From the NCBI RefSeq assembly GCF_009914755.1, contig NC_060934.1: a stretch of DNA of 64,000 nucleotides; one strand, given 5' to 3'. Below the pieces are notes generated by a model that had not been told where the DNA came from, did no database searches, and was given only the letters and a program-made list of their open reading frames with translations. Positions 6,046-53,070 of the stretch are shown here, one piece after another. Each line of letters starts with the position of its first letter. Position 1 is the first letter of the stretch. This DNA comes from the human T2T-CHM13v2.0 reference genome, Homo sapiens. A program made the translations under genes and the position numbers.

Positions 6046-7079
6046 GAGGGAGGAGCCAAGATGGCCGAATAGGAACAGCTCTGGTCTACAGCTCCCAGCG
6101 TGAGTGACGTAGAAGATGGGTGATTTCTGCATTTCCAACTGAGGTACTGGGTTCATCTCACTGGGGAGTGCCAGACAGTAGGTGCAGGACAGTGGGTGCA
6201 GTGCACCGTGAGTGAGCAGAAGCAGGGCGAGACATCACCTCACCTGGAAAGTGCAAGGGGTCAGGGAATTCCCTTTCCTAGTCAAAGAAAGGGGTGACAG
6301 ACGGCATCTGGAAAATCTGGTCACTCCCACCCTAATACTGCGCTTTCCCAATGGGCTTAAAAAATGGCACACCAGGAGATTATATTCTGCACTTGGCTTG
6401 GAGGGTCCTATGCCCACAGAGTCTCACTCACTGCTAGCACAGCAGTCTGAGATCAAACTGCAAGGCGGCAGCAAGGCTGGGGGATGGGCACCTACCATTG
6501 CCCAGTTAGTTGTTTGATTAGTTAACAAAGCAGCTGGGAAGCTCCAACTGGGTGGAGCCCACCACAGCTCAAGGAGGCCTGCCTGCCTCTGTAGGCTCCA
6601 CCTCTGGGGGCAGGGCACAGACAAACAAAAAGACAGCAGTAACCTCTGCAGACTTAAATGTCCCTCTCTGACAGCTTTGAAGAGAGTAGTGGTTCTCCCA
6701 GCACACAGCTTGAGATTTAAGAATGGGCAGACTGCCTCCTCAAGTGGGTCCCTCACCCCTGAGTAGCCTAACTGGGAGGCACCCCACAGTAGGGGCAGAC
6801 TGACACCTCACACGGCTGGGTACTCCTCTGAGACAAAACTTCCAGAGGAACGATCAGACAGCAGCATTTGCAGTTCACCAATATCCGCTGTTCTGTAGCC
6901 ACCACTGCTGATACCCAGGCAAAAAGGGTCTGGAGTGGACCTCTAGCAAACTCCAACAGACCTGCAGCTGAGGGTCCTGTCTGTTAGAAGGAAAACTAAT
7001 AAACAGAAAGGACAGCCACACCAAAAACCCATCTGTACGTCACTATCATCAAAGACCAAAGGTAGACAAAACCACAAAG
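6046..7079 (+). promoter_or_regulatory. L1 5'UTR internal promoter: YY1 motif at 6057-6066, retained ~129-bp ZNF93-target segment at ~6824-6951
   Basis: caagatggcc motif; the segment between two actcc repeats (6822 and 6950) is the one absent from L1PA2/L1HS (established knowledge). Confidence 0.7.
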
Positions 7080-7689
7080 ATGGGAAAAAAACAGAGCAGA
7101 AAAACTGGAAACTCTAAAAATCAGAGCACCTCTCCTCCTCCAGAGGAACGCAGCTCCTTACAAGCAATGGAACAAAGCTGGACGGATGACGACTTTGATG
7201 AATTGAGAGATGAAGGCTTCAGACGATCAAACTTCTCCGAGCTACAGGAGGAAATTCGAACCAATGGCAAAGAAGTTAAAAGCTTTGAAAAAAAATTAGA
7301 CGAATGGATAACTAGAATAACCAATGCAGAGAAGTCCTTAAAGGACCTGATGGAGCTGAAAACCAAGGTACGAGAGCTACATGACGAATGCAGAAGCCTC
7401 AGTAGCCAATGCAATCAACTGGAAGAAAGGGTATCAGTGATGGAAGACAAAATGAAAGAAATGAAGTGATAAGAGAAGTTTAAAGAAAAAAGAATAAAAA
7501 GAAACGAACAAAGCCTCCAAGAAATATGGGACTACGTGAAAAGACCAAATCTATGTCTGATTGGTGTACCTGAAAGTGATGGGGAGAATGAAACCAAGTT
7601 GGAAAACACTCTGCAGGATATTATCCAGGAGAACTTCCCCAACCTAGCAAGGCAGGCCAACATTCAGATTCAGGAAATACAGAAAATGC
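7080..7689 (+). pseudogene. L1-A ORF1 remnant (premature TGA at 7467-7469, C-terminus deleted)
   Basis: MGKKQSRKTGNSK...ENFPNLARQANIQIQEIQ, then jumps directly into ORF2 sequence. Confidence 0.92.
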
Positions 7690-11439
<3,750 letters not shown>

Positions 11440-12394
11440 ACAATGAGAACACATGGACACAGGAAGGGGAACATCACACACCGGGGACTGTTGTGGGGTG
11501 GGGGGAGGGGGGAGGGATAGCATTAGGAGATATACCTAATGCTAAATGACAAGTTAATGGGTGCAGCACACCAACATGGCACATGTATACATATGTAACA
11601 AACCTGCACGTTGTGCACATGTACCCTAAAACTTAAAGTAGAATAATAAAAAAAATTGAAAGTAAAAATATATATATATATATATACAAGTTGGATTATT
11701 TCAGGATAGGCCATGTGATAAAGGAGGCAGGTGTGAAGCAGAAATCTAGTGACCCTCTAAGAGAGAATGGACTAATATTTGTTTGGAGGTAAACTGAACC
11801 AATTGCAAGTACAAGTGAAACTTTTGGTTGTGTATAAGAGAGCGAGCCCTTGCCACTTTGTTCAGTAAGTCACTTGATAGTTTCATTAATTCAGTTCATC
11901 ATTTTGGAACATACAGGGCTACGTACTCTGTATACACTCATTTGCTATCTGTCATAGCAACTAGGTATGTGTCTTCTCAGCCCTGTGTTAGACTGCAAGC
12001 AGCCAGTAGGCAGGGCTAGGATCCTGCTCATCATGTAGACCTGAAGGGGATCTTTTGATGAGTGGAGAACCATTGGTCTTAAAATGACTTGCAAAGGGAC
12101 ACCCACAATCTCGAGAATCACCATTTTGAATTCTAATTCTGAGTAAGGTGGCTAATGAAACTTTTTGGTTCACTGACTGAATTGATTCACAAACATGAAG
12201 TAGTTATTACTCTGTATGTTTAGAACAACATCCTCTTGTTTTTTTGGCCACTAAATACTTGCGACATTGGTTAGTGGAAAGCATAAATTAAAAACGGCAG
12301 CCTGAGTAAATGGATTATTCCAGTGGTTTGCACACATTTTTCGTAGTGACTAATCTTTATAAAACAAAATTTTAGGGGAAATCCCATTATAATC

Positions 12395-12620
12395 ATAAGA
12401 GATAATATATTCTGCACACTATATGCCAGGGGTACTGTAATAACTCTTTTCACTAATGAACTGATTTCATCTTTGTAACAATTCAATGAAATAGAATACT
12501 GTTGTCATTTGCAACTGAGAGTTGAGGAAACTGAAGCAAAGAGAAGTGATCTGGCTTGCCCTAGGACACACAGAGCCAGCCAGCCTGTAATGAGCCATGA
12601 TGCTAACATATACAGTCTGG
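12395..12620 (-). mobile_element. MIR
   Basis: gaggaaactgaagcaaagagaagtgatctggcttgccctaggacacacag matches the reverse MIR core. Confidence 0.7.
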
Positions 12621-12838: not shown

Positions 12839-13456
12839 CCAGGTCGTGGTAATAAAGGGGTCCCAGAGATGGTTCAAATGCTGTTCAGTAGAAAGCATTT
12901 CATGGTATGCAACAATCCAGAAGCACCTCCCTGGGACAAAATTTGACAACCACGGGTTGCTCCACAAAGCAGGTGTTATTACTTCTTTCCTTACTCCCAC
13001 ACCCACTAGTCTGACTCTCTCCTCTGAATGTCTTTTTTTCTTCTAAAATATGTGACTTTCTGTGCTAGACTGCTAAGGTCACTTAGATCCGTGGTCTCCA
13101 AACTTTCTGATTCCTCATCAATAGCAATAAAAAGTTTCGGAGTGTGCTCTCCTAATATTTGGAAATTTATAAATTAGACCCCACAATGAAACATCATAAG
13201 GCATACATAAAATAGAAAAACAAGGAAAGAGACAGTCTTCCTAAATGTCACATTTTGATGGCTTTATCTTAAGGTCAGTACACACTTGGCTAGAGGGTTA
13301 TTGCTATAGTATCTTAATGATATTTCAAATCCACCTCTTGATGATCTTAAATGACTTTTTGGCTAACTTTATGTCACCCATGATTATATCTTTATAGTCT
13401 TCCTAACATGGCTCATAATGAGCTCTTCTGACGAGTATGAGAAATGTCAGCTCTGA

Positions 13457-14044
<588 letters not shown>

Positions 14045-14077
<33 letters not shown>
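14045..14077. repeat. (CA)16 microsatellite at the end of the transduction
   Basis: Perfect CA run. Confidence 0.95.
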
Positions 14078-14080
<3 letters not shown>

Positions 14081-14154
14081 GCAGGAGCGGACATTCAAAA
14101 ACATATTCTGATGTTGACTGATAGTATTATTTAATGTAATAACTAACAGAGAAT

Positions 14155-14365
14155 GATTTCACTTACTGATTGTCTACTATATCCCTGTTACTTTACTAAT
14201 ATTATCTCCCCTCCTCACAAAAGCTTTTAAGTGTTATTGTCCATTTTACTGCAGACTAAACTACTTAAAAGAAGTTGGGTAACTTACTAGAAACCACACA
14301 CCAGAAAAAAGGCAGAATTGAGATTTAACTCTGAATGTTTCTTTCTCTAAAACTTTTACCCTTTT
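14155..14365 (-). mobile_element. MIR inside the transduced segment
   Basis: ttattgtccattttactgcagactaaact...gttgggtaacttactagaaaccacaca...ggcagaattgagatttaactctg is reverse MIR-like. Confidence 0.6.
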
Positions 14366-14563
14366 CACATCAGAGAACTTCTTTTTAATTGTTGACCCCG
14401 GAGAAAATTGCAGTTCTCTCTTTCAGCTTCCTGCCATACCTGAGCATCCGTAAGTCAGCTAAATTGAACTCTATGATTAATGAAACATTGGCATTTAACT
14501 CCATCAGAGGTCCTGCTTAGTTGCACAGGTGTCTGTCTCCTCTGTAAAGACTGTTTGCATTCA

Positions 14564-14869
14564 GGCCAGGGGTGGTGGCTCACCCCTGTAATACCAGCAC
14601 TTTGGGAGGCCGAAGCAGACGGATCACAAGGACAGGAGATCGAGACCATTCTGGCTAACACAGTGAAACCCTGTCTGTACTAAAAAATACAAAAAATTAG
14701 TCGGGCATCCTGGCAGGCGCCTGTAGTCCCAGTTACTCCGGAGGCTGAGGCAGGAGAATGGCATGAACCCGGGAGTTGGAGCTTGCGGTGAGCGGAGATC
14801 GTACCACTGCCCTTCAGCCTGGGGTCCAGAGGGAAACCCCATCTCAAAAAAAAAAAAAAAAAAAAAAAA
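14564..14869 (+). mobile_element. AluY-like SINE, unusually diverged
   Basis: Y diagnostics (gagatcgagaccat..ggctaacac, agaatggcatgaacccgg, ggagcttgc); long A tail; degenerate TSD aaagactgtttgcattca vs aaagactgctggctttca. Confidence 0.9.
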
Positions 14870-15152
14870 GACTGCTGGCTTTCAGAGAAAACTTGATTCC
14901 TCATAGCTCATTCTTTTTTTAAATTTTTTTAAATTTTTAAATTTTTTATTATACTTTAAGTTCTAGGGTACATGTGCACAATGGGCAGGTTTGTTACATA
15001 TGTATACATGTGCCATGTTGGTGTGCTGCACCCATTAACTCGTCATTTAGCATTAGGTATATCTCCTAATGCTATCCCTCCAACCTCCCCCAACCCCACT
15101 GCAGGCCCCAGTGTGTGATGTTCCCCTTCCTGTGTCCAGGTGTTCTCACTGT

Positions 15153-19276
<4,124 letters not shown>

Positions 19277-19339
19277 TATGATCTTAGCTGGTTATTTTGC
19301 TCGTTAGTTGATGCAGTTTCTTCCTAGCATCGATGGTCT

Positions 19340-20356
19340 TTACAACTTGGCATGTTTTTGCAGTGGCTGGTACTGATTTTTCCTTTCCATGTTTAGTGCT
19401 TCCTTCAGGAGCTCTTTTAGGGAAGGCCTGATGGTGACAAAATCTCTCAGCATTTGCTTGACTGTAAAGGATTTTATTTCTCCTTCATGTAGGAAGTTTA
19501 GTTTGGCTGGACATGAAATTCTGGGTTGAAAATTCTTTTCTTTAAGAATGTTGAATATTGGTCTCCACTCTCTTCTGGCTTGTAGAGTTTCTGCCGAGAG
19601 ATCCCCTGTTAGTCTGATGGGCTTCCCTTTGTGGGTAACCCAACCTTTCTCTCTGGCTGCTCTTAACATTTTTGCCTTCATTTCAACTTTGGTGAATCTG
19701 ACAATTATGTGTCTTGGAGTTGCTCTTCTTGAGGAGTATCTTTGTGGCATTCTCTGTATTTCCTGAATTTGAACGTTGGCCTGCCTTGCTAGATTGGGGA
19801 AGTTCTCCTGGATAATACCCTGCAGAGTGTTTTCCAACTTGGTTCTAGTCTCCCCATCACTTTCATGTACACCAATCAAATGTAGATTTGGTCTTTTCCC
19901 ATAGTCCCATATTTGTTGGAGGCTTTGTTCGTTTCTTTTTACTCTTTTTTTCTCTAAACTTCTCTTCTCACTTCATTTCATTCATTTGATCTTCAATCAC
20001 TGATGCCCTTTCTTCCAGTTGATCGAATTGGCTACTGAAGGTTGTGCATTCATCATGTGGTTCTCATGCCACAGTTTTCAGCTCCATCAGGTCATTTAAG
20101 GACTTCTCTACACTGGTTATTCTAGTTAGCCGTTTGTCTATTCTTTTTTCAAGGTTTTAGCTTCTTTACGATGAGTTCAAACTTCCTCCTTTAGCTCAGA
20201 GAAGTTTGATAGTCTGAAGCCTTCTTCTCTCAACTCATCAAAGTCATTCTCCGTCCAGCTTCATTTCATTGCTGGTAAGGAGCTGCGTTCCTTTGGAGGA
20301 AGAGAGGCGCTCTGAGTTTTAGAATTTTCAGCTATTCTGCTCTGTTTTTCCCCCAT
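19340..20356 (-). pseudogene. L1-B ORF1 remnant
   Basis: MGEKQSR... start at 20356; ORF 19340-19879 ENFPNLARQ...TPRHIIVRF...QPLQKHAKL. Confidence 0.92.
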
Positions 20357-21164
20357 CTTTGTGGTTTTATCTAACTTTGGTCTTTGATGATGGTGACATA
20401 CAGATGGGGTTTTGGTGTGGATGTCCTTTGTGTTTGTTTTCCTTCTAACAGTCAAGACCCTCACCTGCAGGTCTGTTGGAGTTTGCTGGAGGTCCACTCT
20501 GACCCTGTTTGCCTGGTTATCAGCAGCGGAGGCTGCAGAAGAGCGAATATTGCTGAACAGCAAATGTTGCTGCCTGATTGTTCCTCTGGAAGCTTCATCT
20601 CAGAGGGGTACCCAGCTGTGTGAGGTGTCAGTCTGCCCCTACTGGGGGGTGCCTCCCAGTAAGGCTACTCGGTGGTCAGGGACCCTCTTGAGAAGGCATC
20701 CTGTCTGTTCTCAGATCTCAAACTCCGTGCTGGGAGAACCACTACTCTTTTCAAAGGTGTCAGACAGTGACATTTAAGTCTGCAGAGGTTTCTGCTGCCT
20801 TTTGTTTGGCTATGCCCTGCCCCCAGAGGTGGAGCCTACAGAGGCAGGCAGGCCTCCTTGAGCTGTGGTGGGCTCCACCGAGTTTGAGCTTCCCGGCTGC
20901 TTTGTTTACCTACTCAAGCCTCAGCAATTGCAGGCGCCCCACCCCAGCCTCACTGCCGCCTTGCAGTTCAATCTCAGACTGCTGTGCAAGCAATGAGCGA
21001 GGCTCCATGTGTGTGGGATCCTCCGAGCCAGGCAAAGGATATAATCTCCTGGTGTGCTGTTTGCTCAGTTGGAAATGCAGAAATCACCCATCTTCTGCAT
21101 CGCTCATGCTGGGAGCTGTAGACTGCAGCTCTTCCTATTCAGCCATCTTGGAACCACCCCAACC

Positions 21165-22478
21165 ACCATCTGATCTTTGACAAACCCGACAAAAACAATA
21201 AATGGAGAAAAGATCTCCTATTCAGTAAGTGGTGCTGAGAAAACTTGCTAGCTATATTCAGAAAACTGAAACTGGACCCCTTCCTTACACCTCATACCAA
21301 AATTAACTCAAGATGGATTAAAGACTTAAATGTAAAATCCAAAAATCATAAAAACCCTGGAAGAAAACCTAGGCAATACTATTCAGGACATAAGCATCGG
21401 CAAAGGCTTCATGATGAAAACACCAAAAACAATGGCAACAAAAGCCAAAATTGACAAATGGGATCTAATTAAACTAAAGAGCTTCTGCACAGCAAAGGAA
21501 ACTGTCATCAGAGTGAAGAGGCAACCTGCAGAATGGGAGAAAATTTTTGCAATCTACCTGTCTGGCAAAGGCCTAATATCCAAAATCTACAAGGAACTTA
21601 AATAAATTTACCAGGAAAAAATCAAACAACCCCATCAAAAAGTGGGCAAAGGATATGAACAGACACTTCTCAAAAGACTTTTATGCAGCCAACAAACGTA
21701 TGTAAAAAACCTCAACATCACTGTTCATTAAAGAAATTCAAATCAAAACCACAATGAGATACCATCTCACACCAGTCAGAAAGGTGATTAGTAAAAAGTC
21801 AAAAAGCAATAGATGCTGGCGAGGCTGTGGAGAAACAGGAACACTTTTACATGGTTGGTGAAAATGTAAATTAGTTCAACCCTTGTGGAAGACAGTGTCG
21901 TGATTTCTCAAGGATCTAGAACCAGAAATACCATTTGACCCCGCAATCCCATTACTGGGTATATACCCAAAGGATTATAAATCATTCTACTATAAAGACA
22001 CATGCACATGTATGTTTATTGCAGCACTATTTACAACAGGAAAGACATGGAACCAATCCAAACGTCCATCAATGATAGACTGGAAAAAGAAACTGTGGTA
22101 CAAATACACCATGGAATACTATGTAGCCATAAAAAGAATGAGATTATGTCCTTTGCAGGGACGTGGATGAAACTGAAAGCCACCATCCTCAGCAAACTAA
22201 CACAGGAACAGAAAACCAAACACTGTATGCTGTCACTCAAGTGGGAGTTGAACAATAAGAACACATGAACACAGGGAGGGGAACAACACACACTGGGGCC
22301 AGTCTGGGAGTGGGGGGCGAGAGGAGGGAGAGCATTAGGATGAATACCTAATGCACATGAAACTTAAAACTTAGATGACGGGTTGAGAGGTGCAGCAAAC
22401 CAACATGACATACGTATACCTGTGTGAGAAATCTACATATTCTGCACTTGTATCCCAGAACTTAAAGTTAAAAAAAAA
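21165..22478 (+). mobile_element. L1PA8-like host element, right piece (ORF2 3' end, 3'UTR, A-tail)
   Basis: Resumes accatctgatctttgacaaacc; 3'UTR aatacctaatgca...cttaaaacttagatgacgggttg...tatcccagaacttaaag is PA8-like. Confidence 0.9.
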
Positions 22479-22745
22479 TGTACAGGTTAAAACACAGAGG
22501 ACTACAGTGAAAATCATTATAGTTTATATAGTTATCAGAATATTTTTCTAAGTGAATTTGTGCCATAGTGATAAGTGTGCTTAATTGATGCCTTGAATAA
22601 CAAGACCTAATAGTAGGTCTAATAAGTTCTGTAATTTTCAAGTAGTAATGAGCATAAACATTATTCTGAGATACGTACAACAAGGTAATGTGATTTCAGT
22701 ATACCAATACTTCCCATTGGTGACAATGTCAAAAAAAAAAAAAAA
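22479..22745 (+). other. 3' transduction of the host L1, followed by a second poly(A)
   Basis: ~250 nt of non-L1 sequence, then A15 (22731-22745), then TSD agaaatttcagctctga (22745-22761) matching 13440-13456 at 16/17. Confidence 0.85.
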
Positions 22746-28910: not shown

Positions 28911-29010
28911 ATGGAGATAATAATAGTATGTGCCTCATTAGATAATTTTGAAAATCAAATAAGATTATGAATGTGCCTAGCACATAGTGAGGGCTTAATA
29001 AATATATGTT
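28911..29010 (+). mobile_element. MIR 3' part
   Basis: atggagataataatagtatgtgcctca...gtgcctagcacatagtgagggcttaataaat. Confidence 0.7.
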
Positions 29011-51520: not shown

Positions 51521-52899
51521 TGAGAACAATACAGGAAAGCAAAAGAACAACCAAATCTCCCACACTCCCACCCACCTTAGGACAACCCTCAGCCTCACCT
51601 TGGAATATTATGTCCTTAGATGCCTTCCTTATACAAATTAAACTATACTATTTGTCTGAGAAATTGTCTCAGAAAATCTACTGATGAGCATTATTTATTC
51701 TACCTTTTCACTACTTAAATTTCAACAGAGCAACAGAACAGAATAGCAAGTAAAAATTTAAACACATTTATGACCATTAAAAAAGTTTCTGAGAAACTGG
51801 CAAAACTTCTTAGAGGTAGATCAAGGTTTGCAAAACTACTCCCCAGGATGCATCCAAAATGACCTAGTTATTAAATGTTTGGTTTTTGACCTAGACATCG
51901 TTTGGCCAAATTGTCTTGTTTTTCAACCTGAATGTAGGCCAGTCTACCTTTGGCCAATGTAATGCTGCCAAAATTGTGTGTGACAAGTCTAAGAGACTTT
52001 CTTCATTTTTTATCTCAGTATTCTTTCTCTAGAACTCAATATCCATCCCTGATCTCATATTGTATCTTCTCCCGTGGCCCTGTTTAAACACCCTCTGGTT
52101 CTCCATCTGGCTCTCTGCCTAAATTTCTGGCAGTTTCTTCAAAGTTCATCCTCCTGAAAAGTCCAAGATGTACTGGGGAGGAAACTGGATATATGTAAAG
52201 TGCATAGTACCTAGTAAATATCTGCCCAACAAAAGTGGTATCTACTCTTATTTTTGCAGCCTTTTATCCAATAACAAGTATAGCATGCATGGTTTAAGTC
52301 TCTTTTAGTCTTCATAAAAATTATGCATGAGTTAGTTTCCTTTCCCCCATGTAAGAGTTGAAAGCACCAAGATGCTGAGAATGTATGTGATTTGCATAAA
52401 TGTGGAGGCAGATTTTAAACAGAGGTCTAACTATTAATTATTTTCTGCACAGAGCTAGATGCAATATGTGGACATGAGAACTGGCTTTGTTTGAAGTTGA
52501 AGGAAACTTTAAAACTTAAAAAACTGAGCACAAAACTAAAAACTTGCTGAGTTTTCAAATTCTGTTATGGCAAATTCTTTCACAAACCTTAAATTTGGGA
52601 ATGTAAATAACATTCTTCCAGGCAATGCAGAGCTATTATTTAAAATTAAAAAAAACAGACTCCTTGAGCAACAGCTTTGTGAACTTGGTTGGCACTACAG
52701 CATGCGTTTTGCAGAGTCAACACAAAATTATTTATGGGAGGTCCTGTTGCTTAATGTGACTCATGTGTGTTTGATTGTGTTTCACAGAACATGGAGAAAG
52801 CGCTGCCATTAGGATGGGAGGTCAACATGGCTCTGCTGGATGCCAGTGGCTTTGGATCTGATCTGACAGAGCTGTAATCAATACTCAGCATTTCCTCCA

Positions 52900-53070
52900 T
52901 GCAGTTACTCCGATCATTTACATATTGCCTTACTCCTCATGGCAAACCTACACATTCTTGTGATTTTACAGATGAAAAGACTGAGGCATGGAAGGGATGA
53001 AGAGCCTGTCCAGGACCAGCAGTTAATCACAGGAGAACTGGGAGCTGAGCCCAGGCTGCCTGGCTTGCAG
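52900..53070 (-). mobile_element. MIR
   Basis: attttacagatgaaaagactgaggcatggaaggg. Confidence 0.65.

What the first reader, a model, noticed from the sequence alone, without database searches (positions are those of the whole stretch)
14029..14950. ~870-bp 3' transduction by L1-B: a MIR sitting inside a much younger L1
Seen: the host L1 ORF2 breaks at accatctgatcttt (14029-14042) and resumes with the same 14-mer (21165-21178); the match extends to 16/17. The site reads CTTT/GA, which fits L1 endonuclease preference. Between L1-B's own A-tail and the TSD lie ~870 nt of foreign sequence, including a MIR-like stretch. Established: MIRs stopped moving long before L1PA8 existed. Inference: this DNA came in by read-through from the source locus. 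A single RNA of about 6.5-6.8 kb was therefore both 5'-spliced and 3'-extended, and the transduction tags the source element.
Basis: partly seen in the sequence, partly recalled or inferred. Interest (0 to 1): 0.75.

Follow-up and report, generated by a model that had tools for sequence, protein, structure and literature searches.

The report
Parentless L1 transduction with unlisted splice
A dead LINE-1 jumping gene on chromosome 10 carries about 550 bases copied from chromosome 16, where its parent likely once sat but is now absent, and it lacks an exact 217-base piece of its promoter, likely spliced out, as do 22 other copies.

Summary
A minus-strand L1 (L1-B, 14915-21161) interrupts an older L1, flanked by a 14-bp target-site duplication at CTTT/GA. 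The foreign DNA has exactly one paralogue, chr16:68,605,410-68,605,967 (94% identical), with no sibling copies. Corrections: (1) the transduction is about 550 nt, not 870, because a 321-nt Alu plus duplication is absent from chr16 and most likely inserted later; (2) no L1 lies at the chr16 donor. Homology ends at TTCT/AG, an endonuclease-like empty site, so the source is 'parentless'; (3) there is almost no second poly(A) tail (2 nt, 5 with the duplication), and the insert ends in the donor's own (TG)n. The MIR-like stretch is weak but above all 500 shuffles. The 5'UTR deletion is an exact GT-AG 217-nt intron shared by 23 copies that do not form one clade. Its acceptor is not among the four SpIRE classes of Larson 2018 and is absent from younger-looking L1s. 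Best reading: read-through from a never-fixed L1PA5/4 on chr16, spliced in the same RNA. Parentless transductions and spliced-plus-transduced L1s are both in print; the acceptor class is the only part that may be new.

The parts
13453..14042 (+). older host L1, ORF2 part before the insertion
   Evidence: 88% to L1-A 9784-10367; host 3' end 16-18% diverged from PA3-PA5 references
14029..14042 (+). left target-site duplication (17 nt with one mismatch from 14026); nick CTTT/GA
14043..14044 (-). all that can be a second poly(A) tail: 2 nt (5 with the three T of the duplication)
14045..14077 (.). (CA)16.5 microsatellite, present at the same place on chr16, so templated by the donor
14045..14563 (-). 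transduced DNA, distal part; donor chr16:68,605,410 to about 68,605,936
   Evidence: 93% over 14045-14564; 27 mismatches in 465 aligned columns over 14080-14545
14270..14347 (+). MIR-like fragment (strand is that of my profile); also on chr16
   Evidence: family name recalled
14564..14866 (+). Alu absent from the chr16 donor, with an 18-19 nt duplication (14546-14564, 14867-14885); likely inserted after the transduction
14867..14914 (-). transduced DNA, proximal part; ends at chr16:68,605,967, TTCT|AG; would hold the source's 3' duplication
   Evidence: 42 of 48 identical
14915..14953 (-). L1-B's own patterned A tail
14915..21161 (-). L1-B, 5'-complete L1 of the PA5/PA4 transition; ORFs broken (longest open stretch 344 aa)
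15799..16098 (-). second Alu inside L1-B ORF2
21063..21064 (-). 5'UTR splice junction CTGAG|CAAA; 217-nt GT-AG intron missing
21165..21178 (+). right target-site duplication
21165..22480 (+). host L1, rest of ORF2 and 3'UTR
   Evidence: 83% to L1-A 10351-11653

Best explanation
L1-B is one insertion that joins an L1 of the PA5/PA4 transition to about 550 nt of chr16 DNA, likely because a parent L1 once inserted at chr16:68,605,967 was transcribed past its own poly(A) signal, and that parent likely never became fixed in our lineage. Shown: the single donor, the empty donor site, the shared duplication around L1 plus insert, and the exact GT-AG deletion. Inferred: the read-through RNA (about 6.5 kb) was also spliced from donor +98 to an acceptor 217 nt downstream, was copied by target-primed reverse transcription into an older L1 at CTTT/GA, and later received two Alus. 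The second A tail has either eroded or was never long (priming at or just behind the donor's UG repeat).
For: One paralogue genome-wide, limited to the insert; donor flanks are single-copy, so not a segmental duplication. Insert lies directly behind L1-B's intact tail and inside the duplication. Donor junction TTCT/AG fits YYYY/RR (Hancks and Kazazian 2016, PMC4859970, passages); that motif occupies 1.9% of positions in the 20 kb of chr16, the stricter form 0.9%. Insert-donor divergence 5.8 +/- 1.1% is close to the 5.6-8.3% among L1-B, L1-A and five PA3-PA5 references. Parentless donors are the rule in dogs: 3 of 27 had an adjacent L1 (PMC13141329, passages). Spliced copies are rejected as one clade (p-AU 4.6e-5), so the splice recurs and an unspliced parent is likely.
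Against: A 3' transduction typically has two A tracts; here the second is 2-5 nt against 10-62 nt for the first tails of 18 L1 ends measured, 9 of which were chosen by likeness to a long tail and all of which include a few 3'UTR bases. The nearest strong hexamer, ATTAAA, is 87 nt from the end, and the RNA would have passed a further AATAAA/ATTAAA about 345 nt upstream. The parent is not seen in the one genome available. A T-rich junction is also expected from template switching, so only the two purines discriminate. That the splice happened in this very RNA cannot be shown without the parent.
Confidence: 0.8

Rival explanations
1. Same transduction, but the parent was fixed for a time and later removed precisely by recombination between its two duplications in the human lineage (mechanism recalled, not read here).
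For: The donor site is cleanly empty, with no L1 remnant or doubled sequence, as precise deletion would leave it.
Against: Non-fixation gives the same picture and is the documented cause of parentless donors; precise deletion of a 6-kb element is rare (recalled).
Confidence: 0.06
2. Template switch: reverse transcription began on a non-polyadenylated chr16 transcript near its UG repeat, then jumped to the tail of an unrelated L1 RNA. No L1 was ever on chr16.
For: Explains both anomalies at once: no second tail and no parent. The junction is T-rich, which would help annealing to an A tail.
Against: The junction continues AG as an endonuclease site would. The chimeras catalogued by Law and Burns put the foreign RNA 5' of L1 (bioRxiv 2025.02.02.635956, outline and passages). 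About 15% of full-length human L1s carry 3' transductions (cited), a much larger prior.
Confidence: 0.08
3. Two events: L1-B inserted first; a 5'-truncated (orphan) retrocopy of chr16 DNA later landed in its A tail.
For: A tails are endonuclease targets (established); the region did receive later Alu insertions.
Against: No inner duplication flanks the insert (2 T on one side, the patterned tail on the other); a truncation point need not fall on an endonuclease site; divergence matches L1-B's age.
Confidence: 0.05

Closest known systems
L1 3' transduction (review PMC4859970, passages; Goodier 2000, Pickeral 2000 and Szak 2003 not held, not read)
   Same: Unique DNA behind the L1 tail, inside one duplication, with a donor elsewhere and an endonuclease-type target.
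   Different: Second A tract almost absent; no hexamer within 40 nt of the end.
'Parentless' transductions in dog genomes (PMC13141329, passages; Halo 2021 seen as listing only)
   Same: Donor sequence with no adjacent L1 in the reference.
   Different: There the parent still segregates; here the event is about 6% diverged, so the parent is likely extinct.
SpIREs, Larson et al. 2018 (PMC5860796; sections 7 and 17 part 1, passages, whole S1 Table)
   Same: Same donor G98U99, exact GT-AG loss, full-length dead copy, about 1% frequency; S1 Table already lists spliced elements with 3' transductions (97/622-13, 705 bp; 97/790-3, 186 bp).
   Different: Acceptor 217 nt after the donor; their acceptors are 620, 788, 851 and 974.

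Membership tests
L1 3' transduction | non-L1 DNA between the L1 tail and the 3' duplication | tested here: met
   14043-14914
L1 3' transduction | one duplication around L1 plus insert at an endonuclease site | tested here: met
   14 nt exact, CTTT/GA
L1 3' transduction | donor copy elsewhere, without the duplication | tested here: met
   chr16, 94%
L1 3' transduction | donor lies downstream of an L1 or of its empty site | tested here: inconclusive
   no L1 in 20 kb; junction TTCT/AG is endonuclease-like; no outgroup genome
L1 3' transduction | second poly(A) tract with a signal 10-40 nt upstream (typical) | tested here: inconclusive
   2-5 A only, ATTAAA 87 nt away; erosion or internal priming cannot be told apart here
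SpIRE | deletion ends exactly at GT and AG of unspliced relatives | tested here: met
   16 of 17 unspliced relatives have GT, 16 of 17 AG; 23 copies share the junction to the base
SpIRE | uses donor G98U99 | tested here: met
   junction 98 nt from L1-B's 5' end
SpIRE | hallmarks of target-primed insertion | tested here: met
   for L1-B; not tested for the other 22 copies
SpIRE classes 97/622, 97/790, 97/853, 97/976 | acceptor at 620, 788, 851 or 974 | tested here: not met
   intron 217 nt, 203 in a variant
SpIRE | reduced promoter activity | not testable with these tools
   needs a reporter assay
MIR | match to the family consensus | tested here: inconclusive
   no repeat library; own profile gives 9.7 bits, 0 of 500 shuffles; label recalled

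The most novel reading that the evidence does not exclude
L1-B reveals an uncatalogued fifth SpIRE class (donor 97, acceptor about 314; at least 23 copies against about 2,590 unspliced carriers of the acceptor), and younger L1 lineages lost this acceptor (TTAG|CAAA became TTAAAAAA) because the splice cost them promoter function; the transduction in addition maps an extinct, never-fixed ape-era source L1 to one base on chr16.
Probability: 0.3. Interest if true: 0.55.

Novelty: new variant of a known kind. Interest (0 to 1): 0.38.

Why it matters
The transduction is an ordinary kind of event, but it gives a base-precise address for a source L1 that is gone, which primate assemblies can test at once. 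A census of such old parentless transductions would measure how often active full-length L1s failed to fix. The splice class is a natural before-and-after for L1 5'UTR evolution: an acceptor in about 2,590 copies, used in about 0.9% of them, and missing from about 1,700 copies of a younger-looking type. The finding as first scored (0.75) is overrated, since spliced-plus-transduced L1s are already tabulated.

Tried and rejected
Siblings: the junction query gave 40 scored hits of 222 candidates, none but the window covering the insert side fully; 2 kb of donor matched only chr10 apart from simple repeats (40 of 309 candidates scored); a 20-mer gave 38 hits, 2 exact; the one 1-mismatch hit (chrX) is unrelated; the 35 two-mismatch hits were not opened. 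Segmental duplication rejected. A spliced master lineage rejected (20 spliced and 16 unspliced rows including L1-A; 13 duplicate loci and 5 rows with short coverage left out; bootstrap not converged; unspliced rows were chosen by likeness to L1-B). DNA deletion by microhomology rejected for the 5'UTR gap: only AG is shared at the ends and 23 junctions are identical. My first guess of L1PA6/7 from the 5' end was dropped; no PA6/PA7 reference was obtained, and subfamily labels come from matching Larson's hg38 rows to this assembly by position. Single-sequence nhmmer for the MIR gave only E>=0.38; a paper search for the core motif gave nothing useful. Full-length copies of the other spliced elements were not examined. 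Notebook entry 2 miscounts: among 29 fetched relatives 13 are spliced and 16 unspliced. Papers not held: (Szak 2003 twice, Khan 2006, Szak 2002, Pickeral 2000, Belancio 2006 and 2008).

Full report
Anatomy. The window holds an older plus-strand L1 cut in ORF2 (13453-14042 and 21165-22480). Both halves align to overlapping positions of the intact neighbour L1-A, and the overlap is a 14-nt exact duplication (16/17 extended) ending CTTT|GA. Between them lies minus-strand L1-B (14915-21161) with its own patterned A tail, followed by 872 nt of non-L1 DNA (14043-14914).

Donor. A genome search with 14078-14545 found 2 candidates and 2 matches: the window and C16:68,605,453-68,605,919 at 94%. Alignment extends this from the CA repeat to chr16:68,605,967. 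The Alu at 14564-14866 is absent from chr16 and has its own 18-19 nt duplication, so 551 of the 872 nt came from the donor. Two kb around the donor match nothing else except simple repeats (40 of 309 candidates scored). Direction is chr16 to chr10, because only the chr10 copy is bounded by a tail and a duplication. Divergence is 27 of 465 columns, 5.8 +/- 1.1%, K2P 6.1%.

The parent is missing. No L1-like sequence is found in the 20 kb around the donor (blastn of L1-A, L1-B and the host's 3' part, word 7, E<1e-3). Homology stops at TTCT|AG, which fits the YYYY/RR endonuclease site in the orientation needed for a minus-strand parent. That motif covers 1.9% of local positions, a stricter one 0.9%; since template switching also favours a T-rich end, the real discrimination is only a few-fold. 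Parentless donors are known: 24 of 27 in one dog genome. Two searches for the same idea in ancient primate L1s returned no paper, and 'parentless' gave only canine papers; Szak 2003, which I recall as the relevant human study, was not held, so I do not claim this is unpublished.

The 3' end is the anomaly. After the duplication come only TT and then the donor's CA repeat, so the second tail is 2-5 nt; 18 first tails measured 10-62 nt (caveats in the Against line). ATTAAA lies 87 nt from the end. Just beyond the repeat the donor reads as a purine-rich tract on the sense strand that includes AAAGA, matching the last five bases of the target primer, about 17 nt past the present end. Tail erosion and internal priming with later change in the low-complexity tract both remain open.

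Subfamily and age. In 732 gap-free 3' columns L1-B is 6.7-7.4% from five references labelled PA3-PA5 by position-matching to Larson's table, and 17.5% from the host. At the seven columns where both PA5 references share the host's base and PA4/PA3 differ, L1-B has the derived base at four and the older base at three; L1-A has the derived base at all seven. So L1-B is of the PA5/PA4 transition, younger than PA6 (about 27 million years); roughly 15-25 million years is my inference. The host label L1PA8 was not tested.

MIR. A 21-nt window motif has 1,814 genomic matches against 21 for its control. A profile from 20 of them scores 14270-14347 at 9.7 bits, above all 500 shuffles, and scores the chr16 copy alike. 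The family name, and that MIRs are far older than these L1s, are recalled. With the donor found, the MIR is no longer needed as an argument.

Splice. Among 29 relatives of L1-B's 5' end, 13 share its deletion to the base and 16 are unspliced. A junction pattern gave 24 hits (control 0), 23 of them truly spliced including L1-B. Unspliced relatives read GAG|GT and TTAG|CAAA, with a CTAAT branch-like motif and a pyrimidine run upstream; the intron is 217 nt (192-218 across copies). The spliced copies include two 5' types and are rejected as one clade (p-AU 4.6e-5), so the splice likely recurred in RNA from unspliced parents. The unspliced acceptor pattern has 2,588 matches (2 mismatches), giving about 0.9%; a version without the AG, as in L1-A, has 1,717 (1 mismatch). 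These counts use different patterns and are rough. As a positive control the known 97/622 junction gave 185 matches. Larson 2018 lists acceptors 620, 788, 851 and 974 only; the term '303' was absent from its text (I did not search 314); searches showed no other listing that points to this acceptor; Belancio 2006 and 2008 could not be read. Larson's S1 Table already has spliced L1s with 3' transductions, so that combination is known.

Mechanism and verdict. Most likely (0.8) a full-length L1 at chr16:68,605,967 was transcribed through its weak signal into about 550 nt of flank; the RNA was spliced in the 5'UTR and inserted by target-primed reverse transcription into an old L1 on chr10; two Alus followed; the parent was lost without fixing. 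Donor, empty site, duplication and splice boundaries are shown; the parent's existence and fate, the order of the Alus and the cause of the short tail are inferred. It is a well-supported example of known processes with one possibly uncatalogued splice acceptor: interest 0.38.

Noticed in passing
window 6046-11670 (L1-A), junction at about 7684-7689: PA4-like 5'-complete L1 with a deletion of about 520 nt from late ORF1 into the start of ORF2; the ends share AATGC and are not GT-AG, so likely a microhomology deletion.
   Followed up: partly
window 6355-6365: L1-A has TTAAAAAA where L1-B's relatives have the TTAG acceptor; about 1,717 copies share this state.
   Followed up: partly
L045-L068: 22 other L1s with the same 217-nt splice, on chr1, 2, 3, 4, 5, 6, 9, 10, 13, 15, 18, 19 and X; 3' ends, duplications and subfamilies not examined.
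   Followed up: partly
window 6046-11670 and 14915-21161: L1-A and L1-B form a near-full-length inverted pair about 3.3 kb apart (94% over 3.1 kb), a configuration that may be unstable.
   Followed up: no
window 12392-12573, 52875-53066, 28911-28975, 2376-2525: Further MIR-like fragments by my profile; the last lies within the annotated enhancer neighbourhood 2194-2820.
   Followed up: no
The 97/622 junction pattern has 185 matches in this assembly against 116 curated in hg38 by Larson; the extra matches were not checked.
   Followed up: no
G000:C4:9,145,847-9,231,393: A tandem array with a period of about 4.75 kb turned up through a simple-repeat match; unrelated to the finding.
   Followed up: no
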